Shown here in pieces: positions 2,785-10,221 of a stretch of 64,000 nt of DNA. The stretch covers positions 1-64,000 of the IMG/VR virus record IMGVR_UViG_2786546905_000002; one strand, given 5' to 3'. The position numbers and the translations under genes are program-made. Source of the DNA: a virus (lineage: Duplodnaviria > Caudoviricetes). How positions within the stretch are numbered: the first letter of the stretch is position 1; the number at the start of each line of letters is the position of its first letter. The notes below the pieces were generated by a model that saw only the letters and a list, made by a program, of their open reading frames with translations, made no database searches and had not been told where the DNA came from.

Positions 2785-2968
2785 GCTCGATACCCCTATA
2801 GGCCTGTTTCGACTCGCGCATCGTGCTACCTCTGGCCTTGCCATTGGCTAGCTGGTGGCTGATACATTTTCTGTCTGAACATTCAGTTACAAGACTGAAA
2901 AGCTCACGACGCGTTCTGGTTAATACCCCGCACCAGTGACAGCGCGGGTTAATCTTCTTGTTAATCAT
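2771..2968 (-). CDS. Small C4 Zn-finger protein (C-x2-C-x16-C-x4-C)
   Basis: CHWC...CSDRKC. ATG 2968 overlaps the stop of the upstream gene (ATGATTAA). Confidence 0.55.
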   Translation of the reverse strand: MINKKINPRCHWCGVLTRTRRELFSLVTECSDRKCISHQLANGKARGSTMRESKQAYRGIEHVSQ

Positions 2969-3323
2969 TCGATGGCAATCCCAATGCTGTAGACCAAAGG
3001 CCAAGGTTATTCTTAGGTGAGACACGTTCGGGCTTATGTCGCTTCTGGATCGATTCCGCAGCTTTGCCTATGTCGCCGTCACACTTCTTTAAGTGATGAT
3101 GCACAGTTGTTTTTGAGACGCCTAAAGCCTTAGCAATGGCCGGTACCCCAACATGACCGTTCCATACATGACGCGGAGCGCCGCCGTTGCTCTGGCGAAG
3201 ATCCACATCCTGAATCGCTTCCTCAATACTCATACCCTTTGCTACCCTTGCCTTAATCGTTACAGCTGGAATGTCGCACTGGCGCGACAATTCCTCATAC
3301 TTAAACTCTCCCTTATGCCTCAT
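2961..3323 (-). CDS. Helix-turn-helix DNA-binding protein
   Basis: YEELSRQCDIPAVTIKARVAKGMSIEEAI and VPAIAKALGVSKTTVHHHLKK HTH-like segments. Confidence 0.7.
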   Translation of the reverse strand: MRHKGEFKYEELSRQCDIPAVTIKARVAKGMSIEEAIQDVDLRQSNGGAPRHVWNGHVGVPAIAKALGVSKTTVHHHLKKCDGDIGKAAESIQKRHKPERVSPKNNLGLWSTALGLPSND

Positions 3324-3325
3324 GG

Positions 3326-5026
3326 CTACTTCCTTTTTGACTTCTTGCCTCGCTTGCGGCTATTGGCCTTTGGTTGGGGTTTATCAGGCACACGACCACC
3401 TTTGCTTCTCATCTTGTAATCAGTGTCAAAACGCTTGTTAATTCGGTTCAATAGGGCTTGAGATTTAGGCGCTAGTAACTTGGCCTTTTCAATGTTCGCC
3501 AATGCACGGGTAAGTTCATGTTCTGGGATGTATTCATATAAGCGCTGAGCAATCTCAACGTAGGAAACTTGGGTACACCACTCGATATCAAAGTGGTTCG
3601 CGTAGTGGATCACTTTCTTGGCGCGTTCAGTGGCACGATACAGAGCCAATTCCATTTTCTTAACCGGTACCGCTTTTACAGCTTCGGTAAACTCGTCCCA
3701 ATATTGCTCTGGCAATGCGTATTGAGGATCCACTAAATCAGATAGATATGGCTTGCCATCTTCACCAATGTAAGCAGTGTGGCCACGGCCAGTATTAAGA
3801 TCCATAAGGTACATCAAGCCAAAGTCTAGGTGAGGCATTGGCTGGCCATCTTGAGGACGAATAGAGTTAGACTTGGCCAACATAAACGCTTGCCAGCTGC
3901 CCCCTTTCCATACCACTTTCATATCGTGGAACTCGACGGCCTGACCTAAGTACAGGTTGTCATTGCGAAGCTCATGGTTTTCAGCGCAGATAATCGACGT
4001 GAAGCCCATTAGCTCATCAAGGTGATGCATCACAAGGTGGTAATTGCGATCAGCGTTTCTCAAACCCTCGTCTGTGTGGGCGATCTGTGCTCGTTGGGTT
4101 TCCACCAGCTCTGTGAGCATTTCAATGTGTGAACGGCCCTCTTCCAAATCTTTCGCATTGCCTTTCACCTCTTGGTCAAGCTTTGCGTTTGTCGCAGCGG
4201 TCTTTTGTTGACGTTCGGACATAACCGCCAGCTCATTGGTTAGCGATTTCACCTTGGCTTGCGCTTCACTCAAGTCTTTTGGATCGACTTCCGTCTTTCC
4301 AGCCAGAGCCACTTTGACTTTGTTCTCGATAAGCTTCGGCACACCCTCAAGCTCTGCCTTAGCAATACGGTGCGCGTTCTCAAGTTCAGAGTTAGAACGC
4401 TTTAGCTCGTCATACTTGGTCTGCAGCTGCTCAAGTTCTCCAGACACTCGGCTCGCTTCGGCTTCGGCGGCGTTTCGCTGGGTTCTAAACACCTCCGTAC
4501 TGCCCTGTAGGCGTTCGAGGTTGTTCTTAGTCTCTTCCAGCTCTTTTTTAACGGCGGCCAGCTTTTCCTCTTGGGGCTTGCCAAGCGCCGAAAGCGTTTG
4601 AATTTGAATTTCTAAATCGGATACTTCACCTGTCAGGTTCTCCACCTTTTCGCTCAAGGCTTGCTTCTCTACGCCATACTCACCAATTTGAGTTAGGTAG
4701 CTCTGGTTCATTGCCTCAAGTTCAAAGTTCTTCGATTTATAGTTCTCCACTTCATCATTCAATTTGGCTTTATCACCCAGCGCTTTGGCTACCGTTTGTT
4801 GAATGATTTCAGGCGTGCGGTCCACTTTAGCCTGCAGTTCGTTACGTTCCTGCTCTAAAGCGCCAAGGCCAGACAGCTTGGACTTCAAATCATCAATGGT
4901 TAGTTCGAGTACCATGATGGTGGAGATCTCGCTTTCAGAAAGCTCTACACCTGACTCACTCAGTGGCCAAGGGATCTCTACAGCTAGAATGTTTTCGGTC
5001 GGGTTTTCTAAGGTGTTTGTGCTCAT
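3326..5026 (-). CDS. Long coiled-coil protein with globular C-terminus and basic tail, 566 aa
   Basis: About 330 aa of heptad-rich E/K/L sequence; C-terminus ...SRKRGKKSKRK. Confidence 0.85.
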   Translation of the reverse strand: MSTNTLENPTENILAVEIPWPLSESGVELSESEISTIMVLELTIDDLKSKLSGLGALEQERNELQAKVDRTPEIIQQTVAKALGDKAKLNDEVENYKSKNFELEAMNQSYLTQIGEYGVEKQALSEKVENLTGEVSDLEIQIQTLSALGKPQEEKLAAVKKELEETKNNLERLQGSTEVFRTQRNAAEAEASRVSGELEQLQTKYDELKRSNSELENAHRIAKAELEGVPKLIENKVKVALAGKTEVDPKDLSEAQAKVKSLTNELAVMSERQQKTAATNAKLDQEVKGNAKDLEEGRSHIEMLTELVETQRAQIAHTDEGLRNADRNYHLVMHHLDELMGFTSIICAENHELRNDNLYLGQAVEFHDMKVVWKGGSWQAFMLAKSNSIRPQDGQPMPHLDFGLMYLMDLNTGRGHTAYIGEDGKPYLSDLVDPQYALPEQYWDEFTEAVKAVPVKKMELALYRATERAKKVIHYANHFDIEWCTQVSYVEIAQRLYEYIPEHELTRALANIEKAKLLAPKSQALLNRINKRFDTDYKMRSKGGRVPDKPQPKANSRKRGKKSKRK

Positions 5027-6250: not shown

Positions 6251-6581
6251 CGCGTTTAGCCCACTCCATACAAAGCTTTTGCCATTTGATGATGGCGATC
6301 GGATTGCTTAAGTCGTAAGTGGTACCCCAGCAAGCCGAGCACTCCCATTTACTGAAAAGAGTCTTTACCCACCCCTTGCCTCCACATGTTGGACAAGGGG
6401 CTGGCCTATCTCTCAAGGCAGGATCGGCATCAGCCAAGTTGCTGAGTACTTGTTGCTCTTGCTGTTGGTTCGGATCCTCAAAACCGTAGCTTTCCAAGAT
6501 AGAGGGAGTTGCGTTGTCACGCTTCTTTACTCGCTCTTCGAGTGTTGCTCGTTTTTGCTCTGCAATCTCATTCATCACCAT
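6144..6581 (-). CDS. DnaJ-type CxxCxGxG Zn-finger protein
   Basis: CPTCGGKG...CSACWG; first gene of the leftward operon. Confidence 0.75.
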   Translation of the reverse strand: MVMNEIAEQKRATLEERVKKRDNATPSILESYGFEDPNQQQEQQVLSNLADADPALRDRPAPCPTCGGKGWVKTLFSKWECSACWGTTYDLSNPIAIIKWQKLCMEWAKRDVQRSREALYRATKTEAEREEDAIQEFHGSSKRTD

Positions 6582-7354: not shown

Positions 7355-8299
7355 TTATAGTAGGCGCAGCTGAACTCGGCCAAAACGGTCGCGATAGAAC
7401 TCCGCACGGCCCATAGCTACGTCATTTTCATTCATTTCAATAAACATTTGGTTTGCAGCGACCTTGGCTTCGTCTGGTGTACCACCAAAAGCAGCAACTT
7501 CTAGCGCTTCCCGCTCTTTCTGGGCCTTATGCTCTCCACCAATGACGTAATGTAAGAACTTCTTAAACGGTTTCGCGAGTTCAAAGCCGTGCTCAGCATG
7601 GAGTCTGATCAGCTTCTTAGCTCCAGAGGCCGTTATTCTCTTAGTCTTAGCTGCTAGTTGTAGAGACTTTACGGTGTTGGCATCTTTCCCAAAGAATCGA
7701 ACAAAAAAGGTATCACTAGGAAAAGCACAGCTCTTATTTTTATTCCTCTCTTTAGAGAGATCTTTTGATCTTTGCCTGCAATTTTGAGGATCCTGTTTTT
7801 GGTGTGAGCCCTTACAGGTATTAACAGGATCGCACTTATCCACGCTCGACCGACCCAACTGCAGGTTTTCGCGAACCACATACTTTTCAGCTGCTTGCTT
7901 AGCGTAGTTATACACACCTGTGAACAATGATTTAACGCCATCAACCAAGATCTGGATGTGACGACGTGATTGGCCAGTTTGTTGGTTGAAGACCGAGTGA
8001 CGGGTAATTAAATTGGCCTGCTGGGCCTTGGTAAGAAGATCGTAAACGGTGCGTTCGCCAACCATCTTGCAGCCGAACTTTGCCGCGCTCTGGTTGTAAA
8101 GAGAAGTAAGACGATCTGTTGATGCGTAGCAGTCGCTACCATGCTTCAAAATATGACTAGCAATACCTGACATTAGACAGGCCAGCTTTCTAACCACGGC
8201 GGGTTGTGTCTGGCTTATGTTGCCAGCTTGGCTCCTAAAACCGCTCGAAAGGTAACGCGGGTTTAAGATTAACGCGGAATTATCCATAAAAACGCTCAA
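7355..8299 (-). CDS. Putative lytic replication initiator (winged-HTH, RepL/O-like role)
   Basis: N-terminal YASTDRL...GERTVYDLLTKAQQANLITR HTH pattern, central KDLSKERNKNK linker encoded by a GATC-rich tract. Confidence 0.6.
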   Translation of the reverse strand: MSVFMDNSALILNPRYLSSGFRSQAGNISQTQPAVVRKLACLMSGIASHILKHGSDCYASTDRLTSLYNQSAAKFGCKMVGERTVYDLLTKAQQANLITRHSVFNQQTGQSRRHIQILVDGVKSLFTGVYNYAKQAAEKYVVRENLQLGRSSVDKCDPVNTCKGSHQKQDPQNCRQRSKDLSKERNKNKSCAFPSDTFFVRFFGKDANTVKSLQLAAKTKRITASGAKKLIRLHAEHGFELAKPFKKFLHYVIGGEHKAQKEREALEVAAFGGTPDEAKVAANQMFIEMNENDVAMGRAEFYRDRFGRVQLRLL

Positions 8300-8316
8300 A
8301 TTCTAGGCGTGATTGT

Positions 8317-8345
8317 TTGCCAGCGATCTGAACTATGGTTATAAT
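8317..8345 (+). promoter_or_regulatory. Near-consensus sigma70 promoter, antisense to the replication-gene leader
   Basis: TTGCCA-17 nt-TATAAT. Confidence 0.75.
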
Positions 8346-8351
8346 TACAGC

Positions 8352-8584
8352 TGTTGGTGTTTCTGTAATTTGTTCCGTTCCATAGCTTAGGGCTGGTCGA
8401 CTTACGAACCACATTGAGATTGAGAAGCGGCTAACTTCCTTTCTCTCATTGGGTTCTTCGGAATCCAATAAATAACTTACGGCATATCAAGGCATCCTTA
8501 GTGTGTCGTTCAGCTTAAAGTTTCTCAGGCTTTAAGCTTCTTTTTCGAAGTAAAGGCTCAGTGTTTGCGCACTGGGCTTTTTCT
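8352..8584 (+). ncRNA. Candidate antisense RNA (sRNA-2) to the leader of the replication gene
   Basis: Consensus promoter, no plus-strand CDS, two tandem plus-strand terminator hairpins (8512-8545, 8552-8584). Confidence 0.6.
8552..8584 (+). terminator. Intrinsic terminator
   Basis: AAAGGCTCAGTG-tttgcg-CACTGGGCTTTTTCTTT. Confidence 0.75.
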
Positions 8585-8815
8585 TTGTCTGCTGGTCGAA
8601 AAATCAACACACTTTGTTGGTCAATGAGTTACTGGCAGACAACCAAGATCCATTATTGATCATTCTGAGAGGATCTAACAAGGCATTTCACCCAACCAAA
8701 TCAAACTCTCCTGAAATAATCGCGGACGTCATATTATCAAATAAATCTAAATTTTGTAGCCGTTTTCGTTTAACATTATTCCGAACAACTTCCCTAGACT
8801 GTTGATAAGGCTGTT

Positions 8816-9181
8816 ATGAAATTTATTCCGAACAAGACACCAGAGCAAGAACTCAAAGATAAAGTAGATCTTGTAAAACAAGAGCTTAAGAGAAAGCAAT
8901 ACCCATCAAAACACGCGCCAAAAGTCGAATCTGACCTGTTGATAACTATTTCAGGCTGTAGCTTAAACTTTTTGAAGCAAGAAAAGGGAATGCTGGTTTT
9001 GCAGGCAAATAAGAAGCTGGCCTTTGAGAATGGTACCAATATTCTCAGAGCCTTATCTTACATTGCTGGGGTGTATGAGCATGTAACGATTGCTGGCTGG
9101 ACTTGGCGACCAATACGCTACAAAAAGCATAAGTTGTATCTACGCCCTGTCGCTCCTGTAGATTTAGGTAGATCCGAGTGA
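8816..9181 (+). CDS. Hypothetical protein, 121 aa, preceded and overlapped by two ATTCCGAAC sites
   Basis: TAAGG RBS; converges on the shared terminator at 9191. Confidence 0.7.
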   Translation: MKFIPNKTPEQELKDKVDLVKQELKRKQYPSKHAPKVESDLLITISGCSLNFLKQEKGMLVLQANKKLAFENGTNILRALSYIAGVYEHVTIAGWTWRPIRYKKHKLYLRPVAPVDLGRSE

Positions 9182-9190
9182 TTAATCAAT

Positions 9191-9222
9191 AAAAAAGAGC
9201 CTCTATCACTAGAGGCTCTTTT
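9191..9222. terminator. Bidirectional intrinsic terminator
   Basis: AAAAAAGAGCCTCTA-tcac-TAGAGGCTCTTTT between convergent genes. Confidence 0.85.
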
Positions 9223-9249
9223 CTGTGATCGCTATCACGCAGGATCTTC

Positions 9250-10221
9250 TTAGCTGAAACGTGTCGTTGATGGATCGAAGTCGATAGCATTTCTCTTAAG
9301 AATAGAACCCGCCTCAGACGTGCGACGAGTAATCGTACTAGCTGGCTCATACCCGCCTGTTGGAAGTGTCTTAGACTGATTACCGCCCAATGATTCAAAT
9401 AACGCCTGTACGACCTTTACATCGTCTTCACTGGCCATGCTGCCAATTGCTTTGCGCTGAGCGTCTGATAGGTACACTGGCAAGCTATTCGCGGCCTCCA
9501 GCAACATATCACCAATAGAGTTACGCGAATCAATCTGATCACGCAGTTCATTGTTGACGCTCTCCAGATACATAACATGATTTTCTAGATCTGCAGTGTT
9601 GGGTACCAGTGATGCACTTTGGATAGAATCAGCAATGGCCATTGCGTCGTCATACTCGAAACCGCCATGATTCTGCAGTGATTCAAGGATCATATCGCTC
9701 GCGTTCGCGCTCTCCAACATCATTGATGGATGGTCCAATGATAGGTAGTTAGGCTGCAGAACGTAATCCATACCATGGAATGACGTCGTTAGTGATGCTT
9801 GTGGTGTATCACGGCCACCGGTAGCCCATGACCAGCCACCAGCGCCAGATTCCCAAAGAGAAAGAGCAATTTTGCCCGTTGGGGTATCGAAAAACTCTTC
9901 TTCATGAGTGATCACGCCATTGTCATCACAAGTGATTGACTTGGTGCGGTTCGATGGCACGTTCTCCACCACCACCGGCTTACCTTGGACCATAATCACT
10001 TCGGTTTCGCCAATATCTAACTTGTTCGCACGTTGGCGCGGCTGGTGGCCATAATAACCATACGCCTCACCAACACGCAGTAACTCTTGTGTGCGTTGGT
10101 TGGCCAGCATGGATTGCACGCCTTTCACAATGTAATTGCGCTTATTCGCGCTTAGCTGTCGACCATCGTTGAACAGGCTAAAGCTATCTTTGACGGTCTT
10201 TAGTGTTTTTAGCTGTCGCAT
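9250..10221 (-). CDS. pro: Prohead (head-processing) protease, P1 Pro-like
   Basis: YGYYGH...GGWSWA...HGMDYVLQPNY motifs; coupled to portal as in P1. Confidence 0.8.
   Translation of the reverse strand: MRQLKTLKTVKDSFSLFNDGRQLSANKRNYIVKGVQSMLANQRTQELLRVGEAYGYYGHQPRQRANKLDIGETEVIMVQGKPVVVENVPSNRTKSITCDDNGVITHEEEFFDTPTGKIALSLWESGAGGWSWATGGRDTPQASLTTSFHGMDYVLQPNYLSLDHPSMMLESANASDMILESLQNHGGFEYDDAMAIADSIQSASLVPNTADLENHVMYLESVNNELRDQIDSRNSIGDMLLEAANSLPVYLSDAQRKAIGSMASEDDVKVVQALFESLGGNQSKTLPTGGYEPASTITRRTSEAGSILKRNAIDFDPSTTRFS

What the first reader, a model, noticed from the sequence alone, without database searches (positions are those of the whole stretch)
8317..8584. sRNA-2: strong antisense RNA poised to silence the lytic replication gene
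Seen: near-perfect TTGCCA-17-TATAAT on the plus strand just upstream of the minus-strand rep gene. No plus-strand CDS follows. Two tandem plus-strand terminator hairpins follow (AGCTTAAAG/CTTTAAGCT perfect 9 bp; 8552-8584). The RNA would be fully complementary to the structured rep leader. Known: CopA, RNAI and Inc antisense RNAs control plasmid initiators, and P1 C4 controls ant upstream of kilA-repL. Inference: a compact antisense switch acting directly on the lytic initiator, replacing the c4-icd-ant-kilA cassette that is absent here.
Basis: partly seen in the sequence, partly recalled or inferred. Interest (0 to 1): 0.7.

Follow-up and report, generated by a model that had tools for sequence, protein, structure and literature searches.

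The report
Antisense small RNA guarding rep-like operon

Summary
TTGCCA-17-TATAAT (8317-8345, +) is the only 11/12 sigma-70 match with a 17-bp spacer in the 64-kb window. Two plus-strand terminator hairpins follow (8512-8538, 8552-8586), with no plus-strand ATG between.

The unit is conserved in Vibrio phage-plasmids whose flanking proteins are only 42-57% identical. Promoter hexamers and spacing are kept. A consensus structure with four helices is 95% paired, with 12 compensatory pairs. G-U versus A-C counts favour the plus-strand RNA.

More distant relatives carry unrelated but equally structured 70-174-nt RNAs at the same position. That argues for a cis-antisense role.

RNA-library contigs from a Vibrio alginolyticus relative run unbroken from the rep-like gene across the sRNA promoter to about 45 nt past the terminator, then stop. 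This fits a long sense leader from a conserved GATC-flanked minus-strand promoter (8681-8652).

Not supported:
- The target is not shown to be lytic. It is an uncharacterised winged-helix protein with no detectable RepL homology.
- The RNA does not cover the ribosome site; it ends about 63 nt upstream of the ATG.
- It does not clearly "replace" c4-icd-ant. The closest precedent is P1's own P53as antisense RNA.

Verdict: a new RNA family of a known regulatory kind. No direct strand-specific expression data were obtained.

The parts
8317..8345 (+). sRNA promoter: -35 TTGCCA (8317-8322), 17-bp spacer carrying a GATC (8325), -10 TATAAT (8340-8345). An A-rich stretch lies upstream in relatives.
   Evidence: Hexamers, spacing and the spacer GATC are conserved in THAF64, V. 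campbellii and V. alginolyticus plasmids. Related TTTGCA-18-TATAAT sits at the same position in L006/L008/L009.
8350..8586 (+). Predicted sRNA, about 235 nt (5' end inferred from the -10; 3' end at the U-run of terminator 2).
   Evidence: MFE -77.6 kcal/mol, z -5.2. No ATG. No Rfam family. The covariance model of the 3' domain hits only this place in the window and in the whole genome.
8350..8447 (+). Variable 5' domain of the sRNA (stem-loops differ between lineages).
   Evidence: Poorly conserved in alignments A1 and A3. Identity drops to 0.53-0.87 among V. alginolyticus plasmids that are 0.92-1.0 identical in the flanks.
8448..8469 (+). Stem-loop with UUCG loop (AUUGGGUUC-UUCG-GAAUCCAAU). 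Relatives have different stems at the same place.
   Evidence: Read. Per-sequence folds show the equivalent hairpin in L017 and the V. alginolyticus group.
8479..8509 (+). Conserved stem-loop (ACGGCAUAU ... GUGUGUCGU) that holds the nearly invariant UACGGCAUA motif.
   Evidence: Helix 2 (94% paired). Its G-U pairs would be A-C mismatches on the other strand.
8512..8538 (+). Hairpin 1 (9-bp perfect stem, then UCUUUUUCG): structural element and possibly a partial terminator.
   Evidence: 26 nt identical in THAF64. Compensatory changes at two stem positions across lineages (helix 3).
8552..8586 (+). Hairpin 2 plus U-run: the main intrinsic terminator.
   Evidence: Seven stem pairs change on both sides across lineages (helix 4).
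8288..8349 (-). Proximal part of the rep leader not covered by the sRNA. It is A/U-rich with a weak Shine-Dalgarno sequence, and has a short hairpin plus U-run just before the ATG.
   Evidence: Direct reading. Inferred, not tested.
7355..8287 (-). Target gene: 310-aa rep-like winged-helix protein, first gene of a minus-strand cluster that continues to an HTH regulator and SSB.
   Evidence: 14 homologous protein clusters. 23 Vibrio/Photobacterium plasmids. AlphaFold model with pLDDT 76 and one winged helix. Weak Cdc6_C hits. Language-model neighbours are plasmid/phage replication proteins.
8652..8681 (-). Candidate sense promoter of the rep-like operon: TTGTTA-18-AATAAT, with GATC at 8647, 8658 and 8672.
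   Evidence: ATTATTGATC is invariant and TTGTTN is kept in all group A relatives. The RNA contig end in the relative lies about 22 nt inside the predicted start.
8776..8835 (.). Two exact copies of TTATTCCGAACAA (8776-8788, 8823-8835) flanking a DnaA-box-like TGTTGATAA (8800-8808) at the start of the 121-aa ORF.
   Evidence: The motif and box are conserved in relatives, where the box is a perfect TGTGGATAA.
8816..9181 (+). Conserved 121-aa ORF of unknown function downstream of the terminators. Context only, probably not part of the sRNA unit.
   Evidence: In the relative it lies in a separate, roughly ten-fold shallower RNA contig after an uncovered gap.

Best explanation
A strong, probably constitutive sigma-70 promoter sits about 30 bp upstream of the start codon of a replication-initiator-like winged-helix gene and fires away from it. 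It produces a structured, non-coding RNA of about 235 nt that stops at two tandem intrinsic terminators.

The sense mRNA of the rep-like operon most likely starts about 300 nt further upstream, at a conserved GATC-flanked promoter (8681-8652). The sRNA would then be perfectly complementary to most of its 5' leader.

The inferred action has two parts. First, RNA-RNA pairing in the leader leads to duplex cleavage or decay, or to premature termination at the weak hairpin plus U-run just before the ATG. Second, convergent-promoter interference adds to this: sense polymerases must run through a strong, occupied opposing promoter. Together these would keep expression of the rep-like operon low and set a threshold.

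Shown: the gene's anatomy, its conservation, its strand-specific structure, and transcription across the sRNA promoter in a relative. Inferred: the transcript ends, repression itself, and its molecular route.
For: 1. Anatomy.
2. Conservation: promoter hexamers, spacing and terminators are kept while the flanking proteins are 42-57% identical.
3. Covariation: 40 consensus pairs are 95% paired; 12 pairs change on both sides; 0 of 500 shuffles reach this; slid controls give 2-4.
4. Strand: standard pairs number 31-40 of 40 on the sRNA strand against 28-35 on the leader strand. G-U counts are 1-7 and A-C counts 0-2 per sequence.
5. Position without sequence: L006/L008/L009, L007 and L018 carry unrelated 70-174-nt RNAs with their own promoter and terminator at the same place, z -4.0 to -6.4. 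This points to a function tied to the locus.
6. Sense transcript: in RNA library X11, one 3.9-kb contig runs from the downstream genes through the rep-like gene, across the sRNA promoter, to 45 nt beyond the terminator. No coverage follows for 175 nt. RNA covering the sRNA promoter cannot come from the sRNA.
7. No complementarity longer than 13 nt elsewhere in the window.
8. In two Photobacterium relatives a ProQ/FinO RNA-chaperone gene directly follows the rep-like gene, one of them with an antisense RNA. FinO-family proteins assist replication-control antisense RNAs (PMC8053102, PMC8136791).
9. Precedent: P1's lytic replicon has the constitutive antisense promoter P53as (reference).
Against: - No strand-specific reads were obtained. 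The two raw-read runs lacked the plasmid, and contigs show neither strand nor ends.
- The window's own element has no expression data at all.
- The sRNA does not overlap the ribosome site or coding region, and no conserved leader peptide exists for coupling, so the repression route is conjecture.
- Three rep-like lineages (L002, L011, L019) show no evident antisense unit.
- The sense promoter is only a 9/12 consensus match.
- The GATC cluster is not enriched above chance window-wide: 2 clusters found, 2.5 expected.
Confidence: 0.62

Rival explanations
1. Trans-acting sRNA. The RNA is real, but its main targets are other phage-plasmid or host mRNAs, and its position opposite the rep leader is incidental.
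For: The 3' domain is conserved much better than the 5' domain, like a chaperone-binding scaffold. Segment 8453-8476 is 17/23 complementary to the start region of the 121-aa ORF, and 11/12 to the dispersed ATTCCGAACAAC motif.
Against: That complementarity is absent in THAF64 and V. alginolyticus relatives. Nothing longer than 13 nt is found elsewhere in the window. Unrelated RNAs occupy the same position in distant relatives. Host targets were not searched.
Confidence: 0.1
2. Pure transcriptional interference or insulation. The act of transcription from the strong promoter, stopped by the terminators, is what matters, and the RNA product has no function.
For: Face-to-face promoters lie about 300 bp apart. 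Tandem terminators shield the sense promoter. P1's P53 and P53as are reported to inhibit each other (my recollection of Heinrich et al. 1995; the paper itself was not held).
Against: Compensatory changes and the G-U bias indicate selection on the RNA fold beyond the terminators, in helices 1 and 2. The very low folding energies are a feature of the RNA.
Confidence: 0.1
3. Origin-associated transcript. The RNA primes or transcriptionally activates a replication origin in the adjacent region, which holds a DnaA box and GATC sites.
For: A DnaA box (8800-8808, perfect in relatives), GATC sites and 34-37% GC at 8650-8900 lie next to the terminators. RNA-based origins exist in extrachromosomal prophages (PMC7157519, abstract only).
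Against: Two efficient-looking terminators end the RNA about 60 nt before the GATC block and 215 nt before the DnaA box. No iterons were found. In L018 the RNA points into the end of a head gene, not towards such a region.
Confidence: 0.07
4. Leader with attenuators for the downstream 121-aa ORF. The promoter serves that gene, and the hairpins are regulated terminators.
For: Same strand. The ORF begins 230 nt after the terminators, and no strong plus-strand promoter was found between them.
Against: In library X11 a 175-nt uncovered gap separates the terminators from the ORF contig, which is about ten times shallower. L018 has the RNA but no such ORF downstream. The ORF has its own operator-like motifs and DnaA box at its start.
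Confidence: 0.06
5. Chance promoter-like and hairpin-like sequences with no transcript.
For: One 11/12 match per 64 kb occurs in 27% of shuffles.
Against: Conservation of all parts across deep divergence, with covariation.
Confidence: 0.03

Closest known systems
P53as (PaskilA) antisense RNA of the phage P1 lytic replicon (Heinrich et al. 1995, Nucleic Acids Res 23:1468; annotated in NC_005856)
   Same: Both occur in a P1-type phage-plasmid. Both have a sigma-70 promoter firing against the 5' part of the transcript that leads to a replication gene, giving a short RNA (about 180 nt in P1 by my recollection, about 235 nt here). In both, the sense promoter region carries three GATC sites (P1; here: 8647, 8658, 8672).
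   Different: No sequence relation. The P1 RNA starts inside kilA and runs over P53 and its C1 operator, whereas this one lies in a non-coding leader and is stopped by two terminators before the sense promoter. The target proteins are not detectably homologous. Here the RNA has a conserved fold.
Plasmid replication countertranscripts: CopA (R1), RNAI/Inc RNA (IncB, IncI-alpha), RNAIII (pIP501), RNAI/II (pT181)
   Same: A constitutive, highly structured antisense RNA is complementary to the leader of an initiator-type gene. The body varies between close relatives, as expected of a specificity or incompatibility determinant.
   Different: No Rfam match. No leader peptide for coupling. The duplex ends about 63 nt before the start codon. 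The RNA is two to three times longer. It is not shown that the target is the maintenance initiator; this element has a separate repA-parAB module according to an earlier scan note that was not checked here.
Lambda OOP RNA
   Same: The antisense promoter abuts the start of the replication initiator gene (O) and points back into the upstream part of the same transcript. The product is a short terminated RNA, and its action is via RNase III (from memory).
   Different: OOP targets the cII coding region, not a leader. It is 77 nt long, with no homology.
P1 c4 RNA (Rfam RF01695) of immI
   Same: A small regulatory RNA of a P1-type element that guards a lytic-promoting operon.
   Different: c4 is processed from the same strand as its targets and pairs with short a2/b2 sites at a ribosome site. 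No RF01695 match was found in the window or genome, although the control genomes did not ring either.
FinP/FinO, and the FinO-family copy-number helpers PcnR, FopA and FinO-RepX (PMC8053102, PMC7491321, PMC8136791)
   Same: Cis-antisense RNAs with a terminator-proximal structured 3' end. Two Photobacterium relatives have a ProQ/FinO gene right behind the rep-like gene.
   Different: No ProQ/FinO gene was found in this genome, which is 88% complete.

Membership tests
P1 P53as-type antisense control of a lytic replicon | Antisense sigma-70 promoter inside the 5' part of the replicon's transcript, giving a short RNA | tested here: met
   Promoter 8317-8345 and terminators. A sense transcript covers the sRNA promoter in a relative.
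P1 P53as-type antisense control of a lytic replicon | Target operon is kilA-repL or homologues, with the origin inside repL | tested here: not met
   hhalign of the rep-like profile against P1 RepL gives probability 0.3%, and against KilA 0.1%. No tblastn hit in 50,697 phage records. P1 RepL was not found in the genome with that query. No internal repeats.
P1 P53as-type antisense control of a lytic replicon | Sense promoter overlapped by the prophage repressor's operator | tested here: inconclusive
   A dispersed operator-like motif (9 sites against 1.9 expected) lies about 95 and 140 bp upstream of the candidate sense promoter, not over it. The repressor was not identified.
CopA / Inc RNA (R1, IncB, IncI-alpha) countertranscripts | Homology to the RNA family | tested here: not met
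   No Rfam family at gathering score in the window. Only chance-level hits at E up to 10 in 7900-9300.
CopA / Inc RNA (R1, IncB, IncI-alpha) countertranscripts | Leader peptide (tap/repY) whose translation is blocked and coupled to rep | tested here: not met
   No conserved leader ORF ends at the rep start across lineages. Only a 2-codon mini-ORF lies far upstream (own reading).
Attenuation-type countertranscripts (pT181, pIP501, pAMbeta1) | Terminator in the sense leader downstream of the pairing region, formed when the antisense RNA binds | tested here: inconclusive
   A weak 3-5-bp hairpin plus a U5-U8 run lies directly before the rep ATG in the window, THAF64 and V. alginolyticus (read). 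The terminator scan does not call it, and no antiterminator partner was identified.
P1 c4 RNA (RF01695) | Match to the covariance model; same-strand targets a2/b2 at icd | tested here: not met
   No match in the window or the genome (where the controls did not ring either).
FinP/FinO-type pair | Cognate ProQ/FinO-domain protein encoded by the element | tested here: not met
   PF04352 was not found in the 88%-complete genome. It is present next to the rep-like gene only in the Photobacterium relatives L018 and L019.
Iteron-type plasmid initiators (Rep_3/RepA, pi, RepE), as the identity of the target | Two winged-helix domains; Rep_3 or related Pfam family; iterons nearby | tested here: not met
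   No Pfam, NCBIfam or PHROG family. The model has one winged helix. No iterons. Only leads support a replication role: weak Cdc6_C hits and language-model neighbours that are replication proteins.

The most novel reading that the evidence does not exclude
The antisense RNA and the winged-helix protein may together form a fast-evolving specificity (incompatibility or immunity) module. Among otherwise 92-100% identical V. alginolyticus phage-plasmids, only two patches are diverged: the RNA's 5' domain and the protein's DNA-reading winged helix. In addition, both convergent promoters carry conserved GATC sites, in the spacer of the sRNA promoter in 5 of 6 lineages and flanking the -10 of the sense promoter. 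Dam methylation state after fork passage could therefore flip the sense/antisense balance once per replication. That would be a replication-coupled RNA switch that also lets near-identical phage-plasmids coexist.
Probability: 0.15. Interest if true: 0.7.

Novelty: new variant of a known kind. Interest (0 to 1): 0.5.

Why it matters
Phage-plasmids must keep lytic or runaway replication functions silent while living as low-copy plasmids. How marine Vibrio P1-like elements do this is unstudied.

This work defines an RNA family that is absent from Rfam and that was not found in the four literature searches run here. It also defines positional analogues in related lineages at the head of an operon led by an uncharacterised initiator-like protein.

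The same family is present in V. alginolyticus ATCC 33787-type plasmids, for which many RNA-seq libraries exist. The prediction is therefore cheap to test.

If confirmed, antisense control of the P53as type would extend from one E. coli phage to a broad group of marine phage-plasmids, and it would give a handle on their incompatibility and copy control. It would not be a new principle.

Tried and rejected
- Rfam found nothing at gathering score, and only chance-level hits at E up to 10.
- INPHARED phages gave no DNA or protein match.
- The genome contigs protein scan found no relative. The genome contigs pattern scan with a loose stem-loop pattern returned 50 unrelated chance hits.
- The exact hairpin-1 scan of IMG/VR found only the THAF64 plasmid again.
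- Searches of 144 genomes at family level and 401 at order level around the host genome found neither the 121-aa ORF nor the rep-like gene outside this genome.
- The raw-read RNA runs X21 and X24 hold no reads of the element, so there is no strand or end information.
- A leader peptide of the tap/repY kind was rejected.
- A type I toxin in the leader was rejected: no conserved or hydrophobic small ORF was seen.
- Trans targets in the window were rejected.
- Iterons inside or beside the rep-like gene were not found.
- GATC cluster enrichment was not significant.
- Structure searches of the rep-like model gave only a generic winged helix (Foldseek E above 0.01, VIA Z at most 7.7). The PDB sequence profile search found nothing.
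- PMC306884 (Heinrich et al. 1995) is not held. Its content is cited from memory and by title.

Full report
**What is there.** On the plus strand, TTGCCA-17-TATAAT lies at 8317-8345 (11 of 12). It is the only match to TTGACA-N17-TATAAT with at most one mismatch on either strand of the 64-kb window. Shuffles give 0.31 on average and 27% have at least one, so the match alone is not significant.

From about 8350 the plus strand has no ATG. It runs into two terminator-like hairpins, 8512-8538 and 8552-8581, the second followed by TTTTTCTTT. The 237-nt RNA 8350-8586 folds at -77.6 kcal/mol, z = -5.2.

On the minus strand a 310-aa ORF starts at ATG 8287, 30 bp from the -35 hexamer, and runs to 7355. 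Downstream on the plus strand lie a 121-aa ORF (8816-9181), a bidirectional terminator (about 9190-9225), and minus-strand head-processing and portal genes.

**Relatives.** The rep-like protein has 14 homologous clusters in the large protein collection. tblastn finds it in 23 Vibrio or Photobacterium plasmids of 19-217 kb, all non-mobilizable, and in no deposited phage.

Most of these plasmids are syntenic P1-like phage-plasmids, with the order head-processing gene, small ORF, gap of about 540 bp, rep-like gene.

In Vibrio sp. THAF64 the two flanking proteins are 45% and 57% identical to the window's. Even so:
- The intergenic alignment keeps both promoter hexamers and the 17-bp spacing.
- 26 nt of hairpin 1 are identical.
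- Hairpin 2 is kept through compensatory changes (GTG/CAC to TCG/CGA).

The same unit is in V. campbellii and nine V. alginolyticus-type sequences.

**Structure and strand.** On nine sequences RNAalifold gives 40 pairs in four helices. These are 95% paired, and 12 pairs change on both sides. None of 500 shuffles reaches this, and sliding the partners gives only 2-4 such pairs.

Standard pairs number 31-40 of 40 on the sRNA strand against 28-35 on the opposite strand. G-U pairs (1-7 per sequence) outnumber A-C (0-2). Selection therefore acts on the plus-strand RNA in three of four lineages.

Single-sequence folds show the same 3' architecture in every lineage: a hairpin, the conserved ACGGCAUA stem-loop, hairpin 1, then the terminator.

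A covariance model of this domain hits only the cis copy in the window, in the whole genome and in group A loci.

**Position is conserved where sequence is not.** L006/L008/L009 carry TTTGCA-18-TATAAT at the same place followed by 99-174-nt RNAs. L007 and the Photobacterium plasmid L018 have 70-nt and 84-nt units. These RNAs are unrelated in sequence, end in terminators, and fold with z of -4.0 to -6.4. I saw no such unit in L002, L011 or L019.

L018 has no same-strand ORF downstream. The RNA is therefore tied to the rep-like gene, not to the 121-aa ORF.

**Is it antisense to a leader?** The 30 bp between the rep ATG and the -35 hexamer leave no room for a conserved sense promoter. Downstream of the terminators, ATTATTGATC is invariant in all group A sequences. 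On the minus strand it reads as TTGTTN-17/18-AATAAT flanked by GATC (8681-8652).

Expression data came from L022, which is identical over 772 nt to pMBL128 of V. alginolyticus ATCC 33787. Fourteen runs labelled RNA-Seq hold L022, six of them on record as RNA and eight only guessed. Two of these were laid, together with two raw-read runs chosen by species label; the raw-read runs hold no reads of the plasmid.

In contig library X11:
- One 3.9-kb contig (depth 78) runs from the downstream genes through the rep-like gene, across the sRNA promoter and the whole sRNA, and ends 45 nt past the terminator.
- No coverage follows for 175 nt.
- A contig of depth 7 then begins 19 nt before the small ORF.

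RNA covering the sRNA promoter cannot come from the sRNA, and the clean gap argues against DNA carry-over. A sense transcript therefore overlaps the sRNA. Its end lies about 22 nt inside the start predicted from the conserved promoter. Contigs give no strand, so this is supportive, not decisive.

**Mechanism.** The RNA stops about 63 nt short of the start codon, so it cannot directly mask the ribosome site. No conserved leader peptide exists.

I infer two routes: pairing-dependent cleavage, decay or attenuation in the leader, and convergent-promoter interference. A weak hairpin plus U-run directly before the ATG in three lineages could serve as an attenuator. This is unproven.

No complementarity longer than 13 nt is found elsewhere in the window.

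In L018 and L019 a ProQ/FinO gene follows the rep-like gene. This fits antisense control, since FinO-family proteins assist replication countertranscripts (PMC8053102, PMC8136791). This genome has none.

**The target.** It has no Pfam, PHROG or NCBIfam family. The model (pLDDT 76) has one generic winged helix and a helical C-terminal part. hhalign against P1 RepL or KilA is null.

Leads towards replication:
- Weak Cdc6_C hits.
- Language-model neighbours named plasmid replication protein, RepA_N, Phage_rep_O and HTH_36.
- A 19-kb plasmid that carries the gene and has no annotated initiator.

'Lytic' is not shown. In the V. alginolyticus lineage the gene sits just upstream of an annotated plasmid initiator that is absent from the window, and it is covered by the deeper RNA contig.

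**Comparison with known systems.** The nearest precedent is P1's P53as/PaskilA antisense promoter in the kilA-repL lytic replicon, whose sense promoter also carries three Dam sites (paper title). Lambda OOP and plasmid countertranscripts work alike. Membership in any of those RNA families is excluded or untestable.

Four literature searches (on Vibrio phage-plasmids and antisense RNA, on P53as, on these plasmids' names, and on FinO-family proteins) turned up no description of this RNA.

**Extra.** Among V. alginolyticus plasmids that are 0.92-1.0 identical in the flanks, identity falls in only two places. It drops to 0.53-0.87 in the sRNA's 5' domain and to 0.50-0.75 in codons of about 50-110 of the rep-like gene, which encode the winged helix. 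This pattern is expected of specificity determinants.

Noticed in passing
window 6581, 6997, 8776, 8823, 12110, 47929, 60189, 61359: TTATTCCGAACAA occurs 9 times with at most 2 mismatches, against 1.9 expected and 0 of 100 shuffles. The sites I checked (near 6581, 6997, 8776/8823 and 12110) lie at gene starts or between genes. The core ATTCCGAAC is conserved in Vibrio relatives whose winged-helix domains differ. It looks like the dispersed operator of a conserved prophage repressor.
   Followed up: partly
window 8800-8808; L022 5231-5239: DnaA-box-like TGTTGATAA lies directly before the ATG of the 121-aa ORF. It is a perfect TGTGGATAA at the same place in V. alginolyticus and V. campbellii relatives. 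It could mark an origin or DnaA control of that ORF.
   Followed up: no
L010, L013, L016 at locus positions 1601-1713 and 1950-2130: Near-identical V. alginolyticus plasmids differ sharply in only two patches: the 5' domain of the antisense RNA and the winged-helix coding part of the rep-like gene. The two patches are separated by about 200 bp of 83-100% identity.
   Followed up: partly
window 8478-8500, minus strand: Opposite the conserved UACGGCAUA...UCCUUA of the sRNA, the sense leader reads as a Shine-Dalgarno sequence (AAGGA), then 7-10 nt, then a two-codon mini-ORF. The mini-ORF is AUG-CCG-UAA in the window and in V. alginolyticus, AUG-CCU-UAA in L017 and AUG-UCA-UAG in THAF64. This may be a by-product of the stem or a real ribosome-loading site that the sRNA would cover.
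   Followed up: no
L018 2723-3226, L019 2568-3056: In two Photobacterium phage-plasmids a ProQ/FinO-domain gene (Pfam E 6e-14 and 4e-20) immediately follows the rep-like gene.
   Followed up: partly
window 8325; same position in relatives: A GATC sits in the spacer of the antisense promoter in the window, THAF64, L017, most V. alginolyticus types, L006/L008/L009 and L018. It is absent in L007 and mutated in L014. The sense promoter's -10 is also flanked by GATC. Dam-dependent control is possible.
   Followed up: no
window 8453-8476 against 8778-8789 and 8813-8835: The sRNA's UUCG hairpin region is complementary 11/12 to the operator-like motif and 17/23 to the start region of the 121-aa ORF. 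This is not conserved in relatives, so it is probably chance.
   Followed up: partly
L009 about 1680-1728; L020 about 2590-2625: L009 has four tandem units of about 12 nt (CCGTTAATCG core) inserted just after the antisense start, relative to its close relative L008. L020 has a tandem duplication of about 17 nt in the variable domain. The RNA body tolerates or attracts repeat expansion.
   Followed up: no
whole genome G000: All relatives of this element are in Vibrio or Photobacterium. None of 401 genomes sampled from the host genome's order, nor 144 of its family, carries the rep-like gene or the small ORF. The contig may be mis-binned into this 88%-complete draft genome, or the host range may be wider than known.
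   Followed up: partly
L010, L012-L016 at locus positions 2808-3887: V. alginolyticus relatives carry an annotated plasmid replication initiator (rep_cluster_803) directly downstream of the rep-like gene. It lies in the same RNA contig and is absent from the window.
   Followed up: partly
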